In this document: positions 45,645-48,932 of the stretch, in pieces
How positions within the stretch are numbered: position 1 is the first letter of the stretch
Layout of the letters: the number at the start of each line of letters is the position of its first letter
From: Candidatus Saganbacteria bacterium
GTDB lineage: Bacteria > Margulisbacteria > WOR-1 > O2-12-FULL-45-9
Direction: 5' to 3'
Length of the DNA: 64,000 nt
Assembly: GCA_016932255.1 (NCBI GenBank)
Contig: JAFGDE010000019.1
Span: 8,614-72,613, forward strand
Position numbers and translations under genes: made by a program
The notes under the pieces: generated by a model
Databases searched by the model: none
The model's input: the letters and a program-made list of their open reading frames with translations, nothing else
Told to the model about the DNA's origin: nothing

Positions 45645-45787
45645 TAAATTGGCCTTCACCTGTTGATGCAGGGAGCGGGGGGGGGGTTTTTTGCATAATG
45701 CGGCAACCGGTTGCGAAATACGTTTCGTAGCGCGATTTGCGTTACGCGTTAAATCCCAGCTTTTATAAATATTACAACACATCATAA

Positions 45788-46282
45788 TTATTGTGCGGAT
45801 ATTATATTATCTAATAGCTCAACTATCTTTATCGAATCTTCAAAATATTCTCTAATATTTGATGCCGTTGCAGTAGGGTTCCCGCCGTGAGCAAATTCAT
45901 TTCTTAAATCAACAAGTGATTGCAAAGAATCCTGTTCCTTCTTTGTTATACTGCTCATGCGGCTATTAAATTCGCTGCTCCATTCATCGCCAAATTTATT
46001 TAATAATTTTCTAATGTTATACAAAGACGGGTTCATGCTACTCTCTATAATAGTATTCTCCAAGTATTTTTTTGTTTCTATTGTTGTCGAAGCTGCCGCT
46101 TTGTCATATATTATTTTTTTTATAGAGCGCTCAACAGACCCGCAGGCCCTTATTATTGCATACTTTGATAGGAATGGAACAATACTCCCTCCGATTCCAA
46201 ACAGAGGAAGTGAAGCCAGAATTGAATCCAATTCGCTCTGACACGAGGATATTTCTCGCTCGACGATACTATTTATTATCAT
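45788..46282 (-). CDS. Stand-alone HEPN-like protein (Rx4H motif)
   Basis: 164 aa, apparently all-helical, with a single RNEFAH (in LVDLRNEFAHGG) near the C-terminal third. Its start overlaps the DUF262 stop (ATGA at 46279-46282). AT-rich. Confidence 0.65.
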   Translation of the reverse strand: MIINSIVEREISSCQSELDSILASLPLFGIGGSIVPFLSKYAIIRACGSVERSIKKIIYDKAAASTTIETKKYLENTIIESSMNPSLYNIRKLLNKFGDEWSSEFNSRMSSITKKEQDSLQSLVDLRNEFAHGGNPTATASNIREYFEDSIKIVELLDNIISAQ

Positions 46283-47388
46283 TTAAATAAAGCTTCCCGA
46301 GCCATCCTAATCCTTTTTTTTATATTTTCTATACGCGTGGTCCGCACAGTAATTGCATCAGTAAATTCACTATTTTGCAATAATTCCAATTTATTCTTTT
46401 CGGCATTGGCTCTATTCCCCAATGACCCTTTTTGGTCAATCTCTTTTATACAAGCTAAAACAATTGCATCAAAAAGAGGCGGGTGAAACTTGTTATTATA
46501 TTTACCTTTTTTTAAATTATATGTTCGAAAAGCATTCTGTGTAAGACTTGTATTTATCCATTTAAATACTTTTGTTAGTTTTTCCACAACATCTTCTGGT
46601 ATTACTTTGTGCAGATCGCGTTCCATAAACTCATTGAGGTATTTTTTTAATTGAATAGATTCCTTGTCCTCGGACTCAATATTATTCACAACGAATGATA
46701 TAATTCTAGTTAATTGTTCTACATCTTGCATCCGAGAATCAGCAGCTTCGGTTCCAAATAATTTTCTCCAATTTGTTTCACCGTTAAATTCAATTATCGA
46801 CCTGTTTAATTTCCCTTGATATATACAGTTCCTGATTTCTTGCGCATTCAAGGTGCGACCAGAAGTATTAATTCTTTCAAAAATAAGAAACATACTGTTC
46901 GAGTTATTTGTTGGTTTATTCTGTTCAAAGAGTATTGCGTGAATGGTTGTGTTGGTTATTTTTCGTTGCAAAGATTCTTCGAGTTCAGAAAAAGCTTTTC
47001 CGCGCCATTTGCTATTTATCTTTTTAGAATTACTAAGTTTGAATACCTTCCCATCTTCTCTCCATATGCCTTTAAAATAATCATATACAGTCATAATTCT
47101 TTGATATCCATCAATTATTAAGAGTTTCTCTTCGTCAGTTCTCGATAAAAATATACTTGGGACTGGCAATCCTAGTAATAGTGAATCAATAAACCTAGAT
47201 GCCTCTGTTTTGTCCCATACATAGTGTCTCTGCATTTCTGGTTTAACCAGCTCATCTCCTTCATATCGCGAAATTAATTCTCTGAAAGACAAATCTGCCC
47301 CCCATGATCGAATATCATAAAGCTCCGTTGATAACTCTTCTTCCCGCTCATCCTTAATATTTACAATTTCCACTTCTTTTTCTTTCAT
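46279..47388 (-). CDS. DUF262 (ParB-like / GmrSD N-terminal-type) protein lacking a recognisable DUF1524 nuclease
   Basis: 369 aa with a GGAGGAG SD. Motifs MQRHYVWDKTEASRFIDSLLLGLPVPSIF, IIDGYQRIMT and FERINTSGRTLNAQEIRN are present. Confidence 0.8.
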   Translation of the reverse strand: MKEKEVEIVNIKDEREEELSTELYDIRSWGADLSFRELISRYEGDELVKPEMQRHYVWDKTEASRFIDSLLLGLPVPSIFLSRTDEEKLLIIDGYQRIMTVYDYFKGIWREDGKVFKLSNSKKINSKWRGKAFSELEESLQRKITNTTIHAILFEQNKPTNNSNSMFLIFERINTSGRTLNAQEIRNCIYQGKLNRSIIEFNGETNWRKLFGTEAADSRMQDVEQLTRIISFVVNNIESEDKESIQLKKYLNEFMERDLHKVIPEDVVEKLTKVFKWINTSLTQNAFRTYNLKKGKYNNKFHPPLFDAIVLACIKEIDQKGSLGNRANAEKNKLELLQNSEFTDAITVRTTRIENIKKRIRMAREALFK

Positions 47389-47416
47389 TTTTCTCCTCCA
47401 CTAAACAATATGCAAA

Positions 47417-47444
47417 ATTTTACGCCCTTTACAGAATAAAGCAA
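47417..47444 (-). promoter_or_regulatory. Promoter for the DUF262-HEPN pair
   Basis: On the minus strand: TTGCTT, 16 nt, TAAAAT, then a leader of about 28 nt containing GGAGGAG. Confidence 0.5.
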
Positions 47445-47499
47445 GATATTCCCCCACTCCATTGACACAAGGAAGTGGGCGGGGGGATAAATCAATACA

Positions 47500-48567
47500 C
47501 TATTTCAATCTAAGCTCTGATTTTATTTTTGGAAGCGCTTCTCTAAATGGAAGAGTTAAATATTTAAAACGTCTTTGAATTCCAGTACCAATTAGTTCTC
47601 GATATCTATTTTCAACCCCTCCTGAATTATCAGGATTAAACACCCAAAACCGCTCAATATGGCCAGATCCAATTGAACCAAGCGCAAATAAATATTTAAA
47701 AAACATGTCTGTCTCTGGGAGAGAAAAGCCAATAATAAATATATTTTCAGCATCAGAAAGCTCTTTAGCCGCTTGACTCCAAACATTTGATAAAAACTTA
47801 TGATATTCAGATTTATTCCATGTCGGAGGCACAATAAACGGCTCACCGCTAACTTTTTGGGCACAATGCTCCATATTTCCAATTTTAGAACCAATATCAA
47901 TATGGACAGATTTTGTTTCTCCTGGCCATATACTAAAATGATATTTGCTGAAAAAATCTGAAAAATGCCAAGGCACAATTGAACCGCATTTTTTGCATGT
48001 TGCCCAGTTTAAAGACCCGTGCAACTTCAGGTATTTTAGAGAATTAACATATTGAGCCTCAGCTAAACAATATTCAATAGGGACTCTTTGATAATAACAT
48101 GCATAATCAATAAGAATATCGTAATTAAAAGTGATAACAGCGACTTCATTCATCCTCCCCCTCCCACCTAATTCCACAATCATTTTGACAAAATCTGCGT
48201 GAGGAACAAAAGGTTTAGCCCCGCTCCCACTAACCTCAAACTTAATTGAATTTTCCAGTGTCAGAACAATTAATCTTTTAGTTGCGTTGCTTAATTTCTC
48301 AATATCTTCTTTGGAATACACACCAAAGCGTTTTAATATTCTAGACATTTCTATTGCACCAAAAACAGATTCAATATTATCCAAATCTATGTATGATTTG
48401 AAATGTGCTACTCTTAACTCTTCAATTGCCCTAAAAACCATATCAATATTATCTTCACTTCTATTCACTAATCCAAGCAACCTTGCTTTGTCTAAAAAAT
48501 TTGACATTAAAGGAGCTCCAGCAACGACAGATGTGCCAGCTCCCAATATAAATACATTTTTTGCCAT
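47500..48567 (-). CDS. SIR2-like (SIR2_2-type) protein
   Basis: 355 aa from MAKNVFILGAGTS (AGGAGA SD; the track uses an upstream GTG at 48594). Motifs GAGTSVVAGAP, ITFNYDILID, LKLHGSLNW and IFIIGFSLPETD are present. AT-rich. Confidence 0.75.
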   Translation of the reverse strand: MAKNVFILGAGTSVVAGAPLMSNFLDKARLLGLVNRSEDNIDMVFRAIEELRVAHFKSYIDLDNIESVFGAIEMSRILKRFGVYSKEDIEKLSNATKRLIVLTLENSIKFEVSGSGAKPFVPHADFVKMIVELGGRGRMNEVAVITFNYDILIDYACYYQRVPIEYCLAEAQYVNSLKYLKLHGSLNWATCKKCGSIVPWHFSDFFSKYHFSIWPGETKSVHIDIGSKIGNMEHCAQKVSGEPFIVPPTWNKSEYHKFLSNVWSQAAKELSDAENIFIIGFSLPETDMFFKYLFALGSIGSGHIERFWVFNPDNSGGVENRYRELIGTGIQRRFKYLTLPFREALPKIKSELRLK

Positions 48568-48677
48568 AAGACTCTCTCCTTTTCGCACATTCACATATCT
48601 TAATTAAATGTGCAACTATCGACTAAAATCCTACACCCTTAATATAATAAATCAAGCAAAAACGAGAAAAATATGGG

Positions 48678-48750
48678 GAAAATCCGAAATCTCTGCCTGC
48701 CGGCAGGCAGGCGAATGACGAAATCTGCCTAACGGCAGGCAGGTCCGAAC
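48678..48750. repeat. Direct-repeat module DR-L (AAAATCCGAAAT + palindrome + GCGAATGACGA)
   Basis: GAAAATCCGAAATCTCTGCCTGCCGGCAGGCAGGCGAATGACGAAATCTGCCTAACGGCAGGCAGGTCCGAAC, partly repeated at 49369-49431. Confidence 0.8.
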
Positions 48751-48833
48751 AAGGAATTAAAATAAATATATCTGATCCAACACCTGCGGGCTAAACTCAA
48801 AGATCTCACAGCCATTGCGCGATTCGCGAGCGC

Positions 48834-48903
48834 GGGAAAATAATGCAGAATTCAGAATGAAGAATGCAGAATTGAGGGGTCGCTGCGCGACATTATAATA
48901 ATG
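48834..48903. repeat. Type-C element, left half only
   Basis: GGGAAAATAATGCAGAATTCAGAATGAAGAATGCAGAATTGAGGG-GTCGCTGCGCGAC-ATTATAATAATG. No right arm follows. Confidence 0.8.
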
Positions 48904-48932
48904 TGACATTGTTCGGATTTCTGATCTAGGAT

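What the first reader, a model, noticed from the sequence alone, without database searches (positions are those of the whole stretch)
45645..48932. AT-rich island SIR2-like | DUF262-HEPN: candidate unnamed anti-phage system
Three minus-strand genes lie in a block that is visibly AT-rich. By eye it is roughly one-third G+C against more than half in the flanks; this was not computed. The genes are as follows.
- 47500-48567 is SIR2-like, with GAGTS, TFNYD, KLHGSLNW and IIGFSLPETD.
- 46279-47388 is DUF262/ParB-like, with QRHYVW, IIDGYQR and FERINTSGRTLNAQEIRN. Its C-terminal half does not resemble the DUF1524/HNH nuclease of GmrSD.
- 45788-46282 is a 164-aa helical protein with one Rx4H HEPN signature (RNEFAH).
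DUF262 and HEPN are translationally coupled (ATGA) and have their own TTGCTT-16-TAAAAT promoter and a strong SD, so the layout is two units, SIR2 | DUF262-HEPN.
Each domain is established in defence biology: SIR2 NADases in Thoeris, DSR, SIR2-HerA and short pAgo systems; DUF262 in GmrSD/BrxU-type modification-dependent restriction; HEPN RNases in CRISPR ancillary, Abi and TA modules. I also recall that comparative HEPN surveys noted ParB/DUF262 neighbours for one HEPN clade. I know of no named system that combines all three.
A plausible logic is a GmrSD-like sensor whose missing DNase is replaced by an RNase, backed by an NAD+-depleting effector.
The island is bounded by a G10T6 homopolymer on the left and a graveyard of repeat modules on the right, consistent with horizontal acquisition.
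Basis: partly seen in the sequence, partly recalled or inferred. Interest (0 to 1): 0.88.

Follow-up and report, generated by a model that had tools for sequence, protein, structure and literature searches.

The report
Known DUF262–HEPN defence pair beside SIR2
A foreign, AT-rich 3-kb island in a Saganbacteria genome carries two separate defence-type modules, a DUF262–HEPN gene pair of the already named and tested PD-T4-2 type and an uncharacterised standalone SIR2-like enzyme, rather than one new three-gene system.

Summary
Three minus-strand genes (HEPN 45788-46282, DUF262 46279-47388, SIR2-like 47500-48567) lie in the most AT-rich segment of the window (GC 0.347 vs 0.542±0.021, z −9.1).

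- **The pair is already named.** DUF262 plus RiboL-PSP HEPN is the composition of PD-T4-2 (Vassallo 2022, validated against T4 in E. coli). Both proteins hit PADLOC's PD-T4-2_A/B models. The ParB–RiboL-PSP-HEPN operon was noted in 2013.
- **The pair is a fixed unit.** In 78 distinct related loci, HEPN follows DUF262 in 70 of 71 with room downstream.
- **SIR2 is not part of it.** No SIR2-family gene lies upstream in any of 44 loci with room upstream.
- **SIR2-like stands alone.** It is a true SIR2 fold with invariant catalytic N/D/H, from a large single-domain family (1,528 clusters at E≤1e-30). It has no conserved neighbour in 83 loci.
- **A DUF262 gene rarely follows it.** This occurs in 2 of 80 genome loci (one full trio in an Uhrbacteria MAG, one GmrSD-like). 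These SIR2 genes do not form a clade.

Verdict: a horizontally acquired mini defence island, with a new member of a known system next to an untested SIR2 candidate. The standalone SIR2 family is the most interesting residue.

The parts
45677..45692 (.). G10T6 homopolymer run at the left edge of the island, between the host RibD_C gene (44991-45644, + strand) and the HEPN stop codon
   Evidence: exact coordinates; sequence. On the + strand it follows a short hairpin (CCTG..CAGG). It may serve as the RibD_C terminator. That is an inference.
45788..46282 (-). HEPN RNase gene, 164 aa, RiboL-PSP family. It is the PD-T4-2_B-type predicted effector.
   Evidence: Pfam HEPN_RiboL-PSP 3e-19, above the gathering cut-off. 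PADLOC PD-T4-2_B 4.4e-8. E51, R127 and H132 (Rx4H) are invariant in 16 homologues. It follows DUF262 in 70 of 71 related loci.
46279..47388 (-). ParB-like DUF262 gene, 369 aa: an N-terminal DUF262 NTPase-type domain plus a C-terminal helical domain (NsnA-C/ParBDB-like), with no DUF1524/HNH. It is the PD-T4-2_A-type predicted sensor.
   Evidence: Pfam GmrSD_N 8e-27 over residues 37-190. PADLOC NsnA 2.9e-65 and PD-T4-2_A 5.6e-50, both full length. The QRxxxW, DGxQR and FxxxN motifs are invariant. The model's best PDB match is BrxU, followed by ParB N-domains. Residues 193-369 are helical with pLDDT about 90.
46279..46282 (-). ATGA overlap: the HEPN start codon overlaps the DUF262 stop codon (translational coupling)
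   Evidence: Overlap or abutment of the two genes is the rule in related loci.
47389..47499 (-). 111-nt spacer between SIR2 and DUF262. It holds a G+C-rich hairpin (arms 47451-47460 and 47471-47486), a weak promoter-like site (47417-47444) and the SD GGAGG (47395-47399).
   Evidence: The promoter-like match is 8 of 12 and not above chance. The fold z-score of the whole spacer is -0.7, not significant. No T-run follows the hairpin.
47500..48567 (-). Standalone SIR2-like gene, 355 aa. It has a Rossmann GAGxS motif, catalytic N148/D150 (FNYD) and H183 (KLHGS), and conserved C191-x2-C194 ... H234-C235.
   Evidence: AF2 model pLDDT 89.3, pTM 0.90. Foldseek best matches are SIR2 of SIR2-HerA (E 4e-10, TM about 0.6), then Sir2Tm/CobB. 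Invariant residues come from the alignment. PADLOC gives only generic SIR2 models, partial, 1e-9.
48574..48581 (-). Shine-Dalgarno sequence (AAGGAGAG) of the SIR2-like gene
48693..48742 (.). Two copies of an 18-nt palindrome (CTGCCTGCCGGCAGGCAG and CTGCCTAACGGCAGGCAG) upstream of SIR2. A related copy of this segment lies at 49384-49445.
   Evidence: D5-D7, I12
48838..48910 (.). Copy of the dispersed host heptad repeat (ATTCTGC/ATTCTTC units plus a CATTATAATAATGTG module) at the right edge of the island
   Evidence: 20 hits in the window against 0.1 expected. Other copies lie at 27.2, 41.1-41.6, 44.26-44.95 and 54.16-54.66 kb.

Best explanation
The 45.7-48.7 kb block is a small, horizontally acquired defence island in a Candidatus Saganbacteria genome. 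It holds two functionally independent modules.

Module 1 (46279-47388 plus 45788-46282) is a translationally coupled two-gene operon of the PD-T4-2 type.
- The ParB-like DUF262 protein (NTPase-type domain plus helical DNA-binding-type domain, no nuclease domain) is the likely sensor of invading, possibly modified, phage DNA.
- The 164-aa RiboL-PSP-family HEPN protein, with an intact Rx4H site, is the likely RNase effector. It would cut RNA once released or activated, stopping phage growth.
- Shown here: the domain identities, the conserved catalytic residues, the near-obligate gene pairing, and carriage on phages and integrative islands.
- Shown elsewhere: PD-T4-2 of E. coli ECOR65 protects against T4.
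- Inferred: the sensor/effector roles and the trigger.

Module 2 (47500-48567) is a standalone single-domain SIR2-like protein from a very large family. It has a complete NAD-binding and catalytic set. Most likely it is an NAD+-consuming (NADase or ADP-ribosyl-transferring) conflict or defence enzyme that works without a dedicated partner gene. This is inferred from the fold, the residues and the neighbourhoods, and is untested.

The adjacency of the two modules is best read as defence-island co-residence.
For: Pair matches PD-T4-2:
- Pfam gives GmrSD_N 8e-27 and HEPN_RiboL-PSP 3e-19.
- PADLOC gives PD-T4-2_A 5.6e-50 (full length) and PD-T4-2_B 4.4e-8.
- PD-T4-2 is listed as 'DUF262, HEPN', two ORFs in 1,540 bp, validated on a plasmid and by native deletion. 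Its HEPN is given as PF18735 in PMC10952713.
- The window pair spans 1,601 bp.

Pair is a unit:
- 70 of 71 distinct related DUF262 loci with room downstream have the HEPN overlapping or abutting.
- R127 and H132 are invariant.
- The pair is mobile. It occurs in an integrase/AlpA island, in six IMG/VR viral contigs, in Akkermansia phage Chambord and in a P2-like coliphage.

SIR2 is independent:
- 0 of 44 DUF262 loci with at least 1.3 kb upstream have a SIR2-family gene there.
- The closest pair (68-69% identity, L002) has an unrelated upstream ORF.
- 78 of 80 SIR2-family genome loci have no DUF262 or HEPN within 8 kb.
- No neighbour family is conserved in 83 loci. The top cluster is integrases, in 4 loci.
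- The neighbours are a mix of housekeeping genes and many different defence genes, with DUF262 at 2 of 150, no more than other families.
- L152 shows a DUF262-HEPN pair next to a complete SIR2-HerA and a CBASS system, which is plain island stacking.

SIR2 identity:
- Model pLDDT 89, with SIR2-HerA SIR2 and sirtuins as best folds.
- N148, D150 and H183 are invariant.
- 1,528 clusters at 50% identity reach E<=1e-30, and the top 150 are all single-domain, 334-421 aa.

Foreign origin: GC z = -9.1 and a GC3 contrast.
Against: - No direct comparison with the ECOR65 PD-T4-2 protein sequences was possible. The PD-T4-2_B match is modest (31 bits, about 63% of the profile), and the DUF262 protein scores higher on the NsnA (Menshen) model than on PD-T4-2_A (219 vs 168 bits). 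Membership therefore rests on architecture plus HMMs.
- No mechanism of PD-T4-2 has been published in the literature I could search.
- The SIR2-like gene does recur immediately upstream of, and co-oriented with, a DUF262-type gene in two other, unrelated loci: L082 (a full trio with a RiboL-PSP HEPN) and L061 (29-bp gap, GmrSD-like). With the window that makes three of three in the same order and polarity. I could not compute a proper background rate for this.
- Nothing shows that either module is expressed or active in this organism.
Confidence: 0.75

Rival explanations
1. One reading: SIR2, DUF262 and HEPN form one integrated three-gene system. A ParB-like sensor drives both an RNase and an NAD+-depleting SIR2 effector.
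For: - All three genes are co-oriented and share one compositional island, with similar GC/GC3.
- Only 111 nt separate SIR2 and DUF262, and no convincing terminator lies between them.
- The same order recurs in L082 (Uhrbacteria), again as one AT-rich block, and SIR2 lies 29 bp upstream of a GmrSD-like DUF262 protein in L061.
Against: - 0 of 44 related DUF262-HEPN pairs have SIR2 upstream, and 78 of 80 SIR2 loci lack DUF262/HEPN.
- The nearest relatives of each module occur without the other.
- The three SIR2 genes next to DUF262 do not form a clade.
- PD-T4-2 protects as a two-gene clone.
- DUF262 is no more frequent among SIR2 neighbours than several other defence families.
Confidence: 0.1
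2. The DUF262-HEPN pair is a toxin-antitoxin-like or abortive-infection module. DUF262 mainly restrains the HEPN toxin by direct binding, and phage interference with DUF262 or with host expression frees the RNase. DUF262 would not be sensing modified DNA.
For: - Translational coupling and a strict 1:1 pairing.
- HEPN RNases are frequent TA/Abi toxins (PMC3710099; bioRxiv 10.64898/2026.02.22.705581).
- The pair sits on phages and mobile islands like addiction modules.
Against: - The DUF262 nucleotide-binding motifs (QRxxxW, DGxQR, FxxxN) are invariant. This argues for an enzymatic or sensing role rather than a passive antitoxin.
- In SspE and GmrSD the homologous domains sense DNA (PMC12065111).
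- This rival differs from the main model only in the trigger, and the data here cannot separate the two.
Confidence: 0.25
3. The SIR2-like protein is not a defence enzyme. It would be a sirtuin-type protein deacylase or ADP-ribosyltransferase with a regulatory or housekeeping role that happens to lie on a mobile island.
For: - Classical sirtuins (Sir2Tm, CobB, Sir2Af) are strong structural matches.
- A conserved Cys/His cluster sits where sirtuins carry their zinc module.
- Many neighbours in other genomes are housekeeping genes, such as gyrase, ligase and Lgt.
- No PADLOC or NCBIfam defence model covers the protein at full length.
Against: - The best structural matches are the antiphage SIR2 of SIR2-HerA.
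- Distribution is patchy across bacterial and archaeal phyla, with no synteny.
- It is repeatedly adjacent to integrases, recombinases, R-M, AbiE, Zorya, Mokosh and other defence genes.
- Its composition in this genome is extremely foreign.
Confidence: 0.15

Closest known systems
PD-T4-2 (Vassallo et al. 2022, E. coli ECOR65)
   Same: A two-gene operon of a DUF262/ParB-like protein without a nuclease domain followed by a small HEPN protein of the RiboL-PSP family (PF18735). The size is similar (1,540 vs 1,601 bp). Both window proteins hit PADLOC's PD-T4-2_A and PD-T4-2_B models.
   Different: The host is very distant (Saganbacteria vs E. coli), and the sequences were not compared directly. The B-subunit match is modest. 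The trigger and phage range in this host are unknown. Here a SIR2-like gene lies upstream, which is not part of PD-T4-2.
Menshen (NsnABC; Millman 2022; Li et al. 2025, PMC12065111)
   Same: The DUF262 protein has the NsnA architecture (ParB-DUF262 plus a C-terminal helical ParBDB-type domain). It scores best on PADLOC's NsnA model (2.9e-65, full length).
   Different: There is no NsnB ABC-type ATPase and no NsnC (inPIN plus nuclease). The partner is a HEPN protein instead.
GmrSD / BrxU / SspE type IV restriction-like enzymes
   Same: A DUF262 N-terminal domain with the QRxxxW, DGxQR and FxxxN motifs. BrxU is the best structural match of the model.
   Different: No DUF1524/HNH DNase domain. The effector is a separate predicted RNase.
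ParB - RiboL-PSP-HEPN operons (Anantharaman et al. 2013, PMC3710099)
   Same: The same gene association, described from comparative genomics: 'Ribo L-PSP-HEPN ... operon with ParB'.
   Different: The survey gave no experimental function. This locus adds nothing architecturally new to it.
SIR2 of SIR2-HerA (Nezha / GAO_19), and other defence SIR2s (ThsA, DSR1/2, SIR2-APAZ)
   Same: A SIR2 Rossmann fold with catalytic Asn/Asp/His. SIR2-HerA SIR2 is the closest solved structure (TM about 0.55-0.65). Both occur in defence islands.
   Different: There is no HerA, pAgo/APAZ, TIR or SLOG partner or fusion, and the protein is a single 355-aa domain. Sequence similarity to all PADLOC SIR2 models is partial (E about 1e-9). 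It carries its own conserved motifs (PPTWNK, CxxC...HC).

Membership tests
PD-T4-2 | Component A: DUF262/ParB-like protein lacking a DUF1524/HNH nuclease domain | tested here: met
   Pfam finds GmrSD_N only, with no GmrSD_C. PADLOC PD-T4-2_A 5.6e-50, covering profile positions 30-360 of 363.
PD-T4-2 | Component B: small HEPN protein (PF18735, RiboL-PSP) encoded immediately downstream in the same operon | tested here: met
   Pfam HEPN_RiboL-PSP 3e-19. PADLOC PD-T4-2_B 4.4e-8, profile positions 29-134 of 168. ATGA overlap. PMC10952713 lists PF18735 for PD-T4-2.
PD-T4-2 | Sequence relatedness to the ECOR65 proteins themselves (RCO39066.1 and the unannotated second ORF) | not tested
   The ECOR65 draft contig QOYX01000002 is not in any collection I could read. 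Only the PADLOC profiles derived from the family were used.
PD-T4-2 | Confers phage resistance | not testable with these tools
   Shown for the E. coli system only.
Menshen (NsnABC) | NsnA-like protein (ParB-DUF262 plus ParBDB) | tested here: met
   PADLOC NsnA 2.9e-65, residues 16-366 on profile positions 32-378 of 385.
Menshen (NsnABC) | NsnB ABC-type ATPase and NsnC effector immediately downstream of NsnA | tested here: not met
   The downstream gene is a 164-aa HEPN, followed by the host RibD_C on the other strand. The definition of the system comes from PMC12065111.
GmrSD / BrxU / SspE | DUF262 fused to, or paired with, a DUF1524 (His-Me/HNH) DNase | tested here: not met
   No GmrSD_C/DUF1524 hit at E<=1. 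The C-terminal half is an all-helical domain.
SIR2-HerA (Nezha/GAO_19) | SIR2 protein encoded next to a HerA-type ATPase | tested here: not met
   The SIR2 fold match is met, but no HerA lies in the window flanks. A true SIR2-HerA pair looks different: in L152 SIR2 matches PDLC04084 at 3e-69 and HerA at 5e-84.
Thoeris ThsA / DSR1-DSR2 / SIR2-APAZ | SIR2 fused to SLOG, to a large C-terminal sensor (about 1,000 aa), or paired with short pAgo/TIR | tested here: not met
   The protein is a single-domain 355-aa protein. Family members are 334-421 aa and match end to end. No such neighbours are present.
SIR2 superfamily (catalytically competent) | Rossmann GxGxS NAD-binding loop, catalytic Asn/Asp (xNxD) and His (HG) | tested here: met
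   G9, A10, G11 and S13 (nearly invariant); F147, N148, Y149, D150, H183 and G184 (invariant). Model pLDDT 89. The Pfam SIR2_2 score alone is below the cut-off (17.8 vs 24.5 bits).

The most novel reading that the evidence does not exclude
The standalone SIR2-like protein is a modular NAD+-consuming effector that has been recruited repeatedly and independently to the position immediately upstream of ParB/DUF262-type DNA sensors. The cases are the window, the Uhrbacteria trio L082, and the GmrSD-like neighbour in L061. Together with such a sensor it would form a facultative two-armed system (RNA or DNA cleavage plus NAD+ depletion). A weaker form of the same reading: this family of about 360-aa proteins (at least 1,528 clusters at 50% identity) is a new partner-less single-gene antiphage NADase, not covered at full length by the 2023 PADLOC or 2026 NCBIfam models searched here.
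Probability: 0.1. Interest if true: 0.65.

Novelty: new member of a known kind. Interest (0 to 1): 0.3.

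Why it matters
As a three-gene system it would have been a new defence architecture. The evidence says it is not one.

What remains useful:
- It gives a clean, deeply divergent example of the PD-T4-2-type DUF262-HEPN pair, in a candidate phylum. The data show that the pairing is near-obligate (70 of 71) and is carried by phages and integrative islands. That supports treating PD-T4-2 as a widespread, ancient two-gene module whose mechanism is still unsolved.
- It draws attention to a very large family of single-domain SIR2-like proteins with intact catalytic residues, no conserved partner and frequent defence-island residence. 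The 2023 PADLOC and 2026 NCBIfam defence models searched here do not cover this family at full length. Well-characterised defence SIR2s such as ThsA, DSR1/2, SIR2-HerA and SIR2-APAZ rely on a fused or adjacent sensor. How a bare SIR2 of this kind would be kept off and switched on is therefore a real question and can be tested.

Tried and rejected
- **Menshen.** I considered it because NsnA is the top PADLOC hit. I rejected it because NsnB and NsnC are absent and the partner is a HEPN.
- **GmrSD.** Rejected: there is no DUF1524.
- **SIR2-HerA, Thoeris, DSR.** Rejected for the SIR2-like gene: no partner and no fusion.
- **A conserved small ORF or other partner of the SIR2-like gene.** I clustered the +/-4 neighbours in 83 loci and found none.
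- **Island boundaries.** I looked for an integrase, a tRNA or att-type direct repeats. There is only one tRNA-Met, at 24.9 kb, no integrase in the flanks, and the only repeats are the dispersed host ones.
- **Promoter and terminator scan.** It gave chance-level counts, so the transcription units remain undetermined. Folding of the SIR2-DUF262 spacer and of the region 3' of HEPN was not significant.
- **Rfam.** No RNA family at E<=0.1 in 43-51 kb.
- **Viral contigs with the SIR2 profile.** Only distant SIR2 relatives turned up (21-29% identity), which are uninformative.
- **First DUF262 structure job.** I repeated it with permitted rows.
- **One PADLOC call** failed on a wrong reading frame.
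- **Literature on a described standalone SIR2 defence family of this type.** The searches found nothing. That is not proof of absence, because many journals are not in the library.

Full report
**1. What is there**

The window comes from a Candidatus Saganbacteria MAG. Its three proteins have 99-100% database hits on a 76,198-bp contig, loci JW782_06200 to JW782_06210.

Three minus-strand ORFs sit at the coordinates given: HEPN 45788-46282 (164 aa), DUF262 46279-47388 (369 aa) and SIR2-like 47500-48567 (355 aa). The quoted motifs, the ATGA overlap, the SD sequences and the G10T6 run (45677-45692) are all present.

The block is the most AT-rich part of the 64 kb.
- GC is 0.347 against 0.542 +/- 0.021 for other 3-kb windows, z = -9.1.
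- Third-position GC is 0.25-0.33 against 0.66-0.73 in the flanking RibD_C, histidine-phosphatase and beta-lactamase-family genes.

Horizontal acquisition is therefore well supported. However, no integrase, tRNA or flanking direct repeat marks the edges.

The repeat modules on the right are copies of a dispersed host repeat made of ATTCTGC/ATTCTTC heptads. It has 20 hits in the window against 0.1 expected.

The proposed promoter matches 8 of 12 consensus positions. Promoter-like sites here are at chance level (12 found, 12.3 expected). The two-transcription-unit layout is therefore plausible but not shown.

**2. Domain identities**

DUF262:
- Pfam gives GmrSD_N 8e-27 with no DUF1524.
- The QRxxxW, DGxQR and FxxxN motifs are invariant among homologues.
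- PADLOC's NsnA (2.9e-65) and PD-T4-2_A (5.6e-50) models both cover the whole protein, including the C-terminal helical half.
- The AF2 model's best PDB match is BrxU, followed by ParB N-domains.

HEPN:
- Pfam gives HEPN_RiboL-PSP 3e-19, and PADLOC gives PD-T4-2_B 4.4e-8.
- E51, R127 and H132 are invariant in 16 homologues.
- Homologues are 161-164 aa. This supports the ATGA-coupled start rather than NCBI's 147-aa call.

SIR2-like:
- Sequence profiles are weak. SIR2_2 scores 17.8 bits, below the 24.5 cut-off. PADLOC hits are generic SIR2 models at 1e-9 and partial. NCBIfam SIR2_antiphage scores 15.9 bits against a cut-off of 500.
- The family alignment keeps GAGxS, FNYD, KLHGSxNW, C-x2-C, H-C, PPTWNK and IGYSxxxxD.
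- The model is confident (pLDDT 89.3, pTM 0.90).
- Its best PDB matches are the SIR2 subunits of SIR2-HerA/Nezha complexes (E 4e-10, TM about 0.55-0.65), then classical sirtuins.

**3. The pair is a known, named module**

- Vassallo et al. list PD-T4-2 as 'DUF262, HEPN'. It comprises two ORFs in 1,540 bp of ECOR65, the second unannotated. It was validated on a plasmid, and deletion in the native strain restored T4 plaquing.
- A review assigns PF18735 (RiboL-PSP HEPN) and DUF262 to PD-T4-2. Another lists it as a multi-gene HEPN system.
- The 2013 HEPN survey already records 'Ribo L-PSP-HEPN ... operon with ParB'.
- Menshen is excluded, because it needs NsnB and NsnC and the window has neither.

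**4. Co-occurrence tests**

Anchoring on DUF262 (metagenome, viral and look-up loci) gave 78 distinct loci.
- 70 of the 71 with at least 450 bp downstream have the HEPN overlapping or abutting.
- None of the 44 with at least 1.3 kb upstream has a SIR2-family gene there.
- The closest relative of the pair (68-69% identity) has an unrelated upstream ORF.
- The pair is mobile. It lies in an integrase/AlpA island, in six IMG/VR viral contigs, in Akkermansia phage Chambord and, with a related HEPN, in a P2-like coliphage.

Anchoring on SIR2 gave 80 loci from GTDB representative genomes across many bacterial and some archaeal phyla.
- 78 have no DUF262 or HEPN within 8 kb.
- No neighbour family is conserved. 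The top cluster is integrases, in 4 of 83 loci.
- The 150 nearest neighbours are a mix of housekeeping genes and many different defence genes: type III R-M, ZorB, Mokosh, AbiLi, PD-Lambda-1, mad2 and HepT/MNT. DUF262 accounts for 2 of 150.
- Further contexts show a giant helicase-nuclease plus AbiE plus HsdM, and a methyltransferase plus serine recombinase.
- The family is large. 1,528 clusters at 50% identity reach E<=1e-30, and the top 150 are all single-domain proteins of 334-421 aa.

**5. The exceptions**

- L082 (Ca. Uhrbacteria) has SIR2-like, a 282-bp gap, then an NsnA/PD-T4-2_A-like DUF262 overlapping a 369-aa RiboL-PSP HEPN. All three are AT-rich relative to their flanks.
- L061 has SIR2-like 29 bp upstream of a GmrSD-like DUF262+DUF1524 protein.
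- With the window, that makes three cases with the same order and polarity.
- The three SIR2 genes are not a clade. The window-L082 MRCA is the whole 84-leaf tree. The L082 DUF262 is only 23% identical to the window's. These are independent juxtapositions.
- L152 shows the trivial alternative: a DUF262-HEPN pair followed by a complete SIR2-HerA and a CBASS operon.
- I could not compute a rigorous background rate. The observed frequencies (2 of 80 and 0 of 44) and the parity with other defence neighbours favour island co-residence. A facultative functional link is not excluded, and I give it about 10%.

**6. Mechanism**

Most likely the island holds two independent modules.

Pair:
- By analogy with SspE and GmrSD, where the DUF262 and middle domains sense DNA and NTP hydrolysis switches on the nuclease (PMC12065111), the ParB-like protein is the sensor or regulator.
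- The HEPN, probably as a dimer as is typical of the superfamily, is the RNase effector.
- Shown: domains, residues, pairing and mobility. Shown elsewhere: antiphage activity of the E. coli system. Inferred: the trigger, the RNA target, and whether the outcome is abortive.

SIR2-like:
- It is a catalytically competent NAD+-consuming enzyme without a partner.
- Its regulation is unknown. It may involve the long helical insertion (residues 21-107) or oligomerisation. Both are inferences.

**7. Verdict**

The pair is a new, distant member of a known and named system. The trio is not a conserved system. The standalone SIR2-like family is the part that deserves follow-up. Interest is modest (0.3).

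Noticed in passing
window 27210-27227, 41101-41560, 44258-44993, 48838-48910, 54164-54656: A dispersed repeat family built of ATTCTGC/ATTCTTC heptads, with 20 hits against 0.1 expected. It includes a 132-nt duplicate (44295-44426 and 44862-44993, 90% identical) flanking a small membrane-protein ORF. The family looks MITE-like.
   Followed up: partly
window 41000-42000: A second, smaller AT-rich dip (GC 0.40-0.44) that coincides with copies of the heptad repeat. Its content was not examined.
   Followed up: no
window 48699-48773 and 49391-49445: A direct repeat of about 75 nt (73-82% identical), including the CTGCC..GGCAG palindrome, brackets the GC-rich 120-aa ORF 48933-49295, which has no Pfam hit. 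It could be a duplicated intergenic element or a remnant of an insertion.
   Followed up: no
window 45788-46282: NCBI annotates the HEPN gene as 147 aa (JW782_06200). Homologues of 161-164 aa and the ATGA overlap indicate that the true start is 17 codons upstream.
   Followed up: yes
L082 7986-11775 (Ca. Uhrbacteria GW2011_GWF2_39_13, LBWG01000033.1): An independent occurrence of the same gene order: SIR2-like, then NsnA/PD-T4-2_A-like DUF262, then an overlapping 369-aa RiboL-PSP HEPN protein. The block is AT-rich (0.34-0.35) against flanks of 0.41-0.45.
   Followed up: partly
L061 7998-10677 (Thermodesulfobacteriota MAG): A SIR2-like gene lies 29 bp upstream of a 526-aa GmrSD-like DUF262+DUF1524 protein (PADLOC HEC-05, 2e-37). 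The spacing is operon-like.
   Followed up: partly
L152 165-6979: Three defence systems lie in a row: a DUF262-HEPN pair, SIR2-HerA (SIR2 3e-69, HerA 5e-84) and CBASS (cyclase 3e-129 plus a 4TM effector 2.5e-101).
   Followed up: yes
L195-L204 (P0073 contexts): In this clade the SIR2-like gene lies 40 bp downstream of a roughly 1,700-1,800-aa protein with SF1-helicase (AAA_11/AAA_12), MTES_1575 and GreA_GreB domains. RHH, AbiEi/AbiEii and HsdM genes are nearby. This may be a clade-specific two-gene unit.
   Followed up: no
L187 1878-4688 (Akkermansia phage Chambord) and L186 140-2015 (P2-like phage P24B2): Temperate phages carry DUF262-HEPN pairs. In Chambord the pair lies directly after a DNA methyltransferase gene. 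In P24B2 a cytosine methyltransferase gene is nearby and the HEPN partner is a 239-aa MAE_28990-type protein.
   Followed up: partly
proteins P0124-P0240: Many gut-metagenome and Blautia homologues of the DUF262 protein are about 437 aa, with an N-terminal extension of about 65 aa that the window protein lacks. This recalls the N-terminal sensor-domain polymorphism described for NsnA.
   Followed up: no
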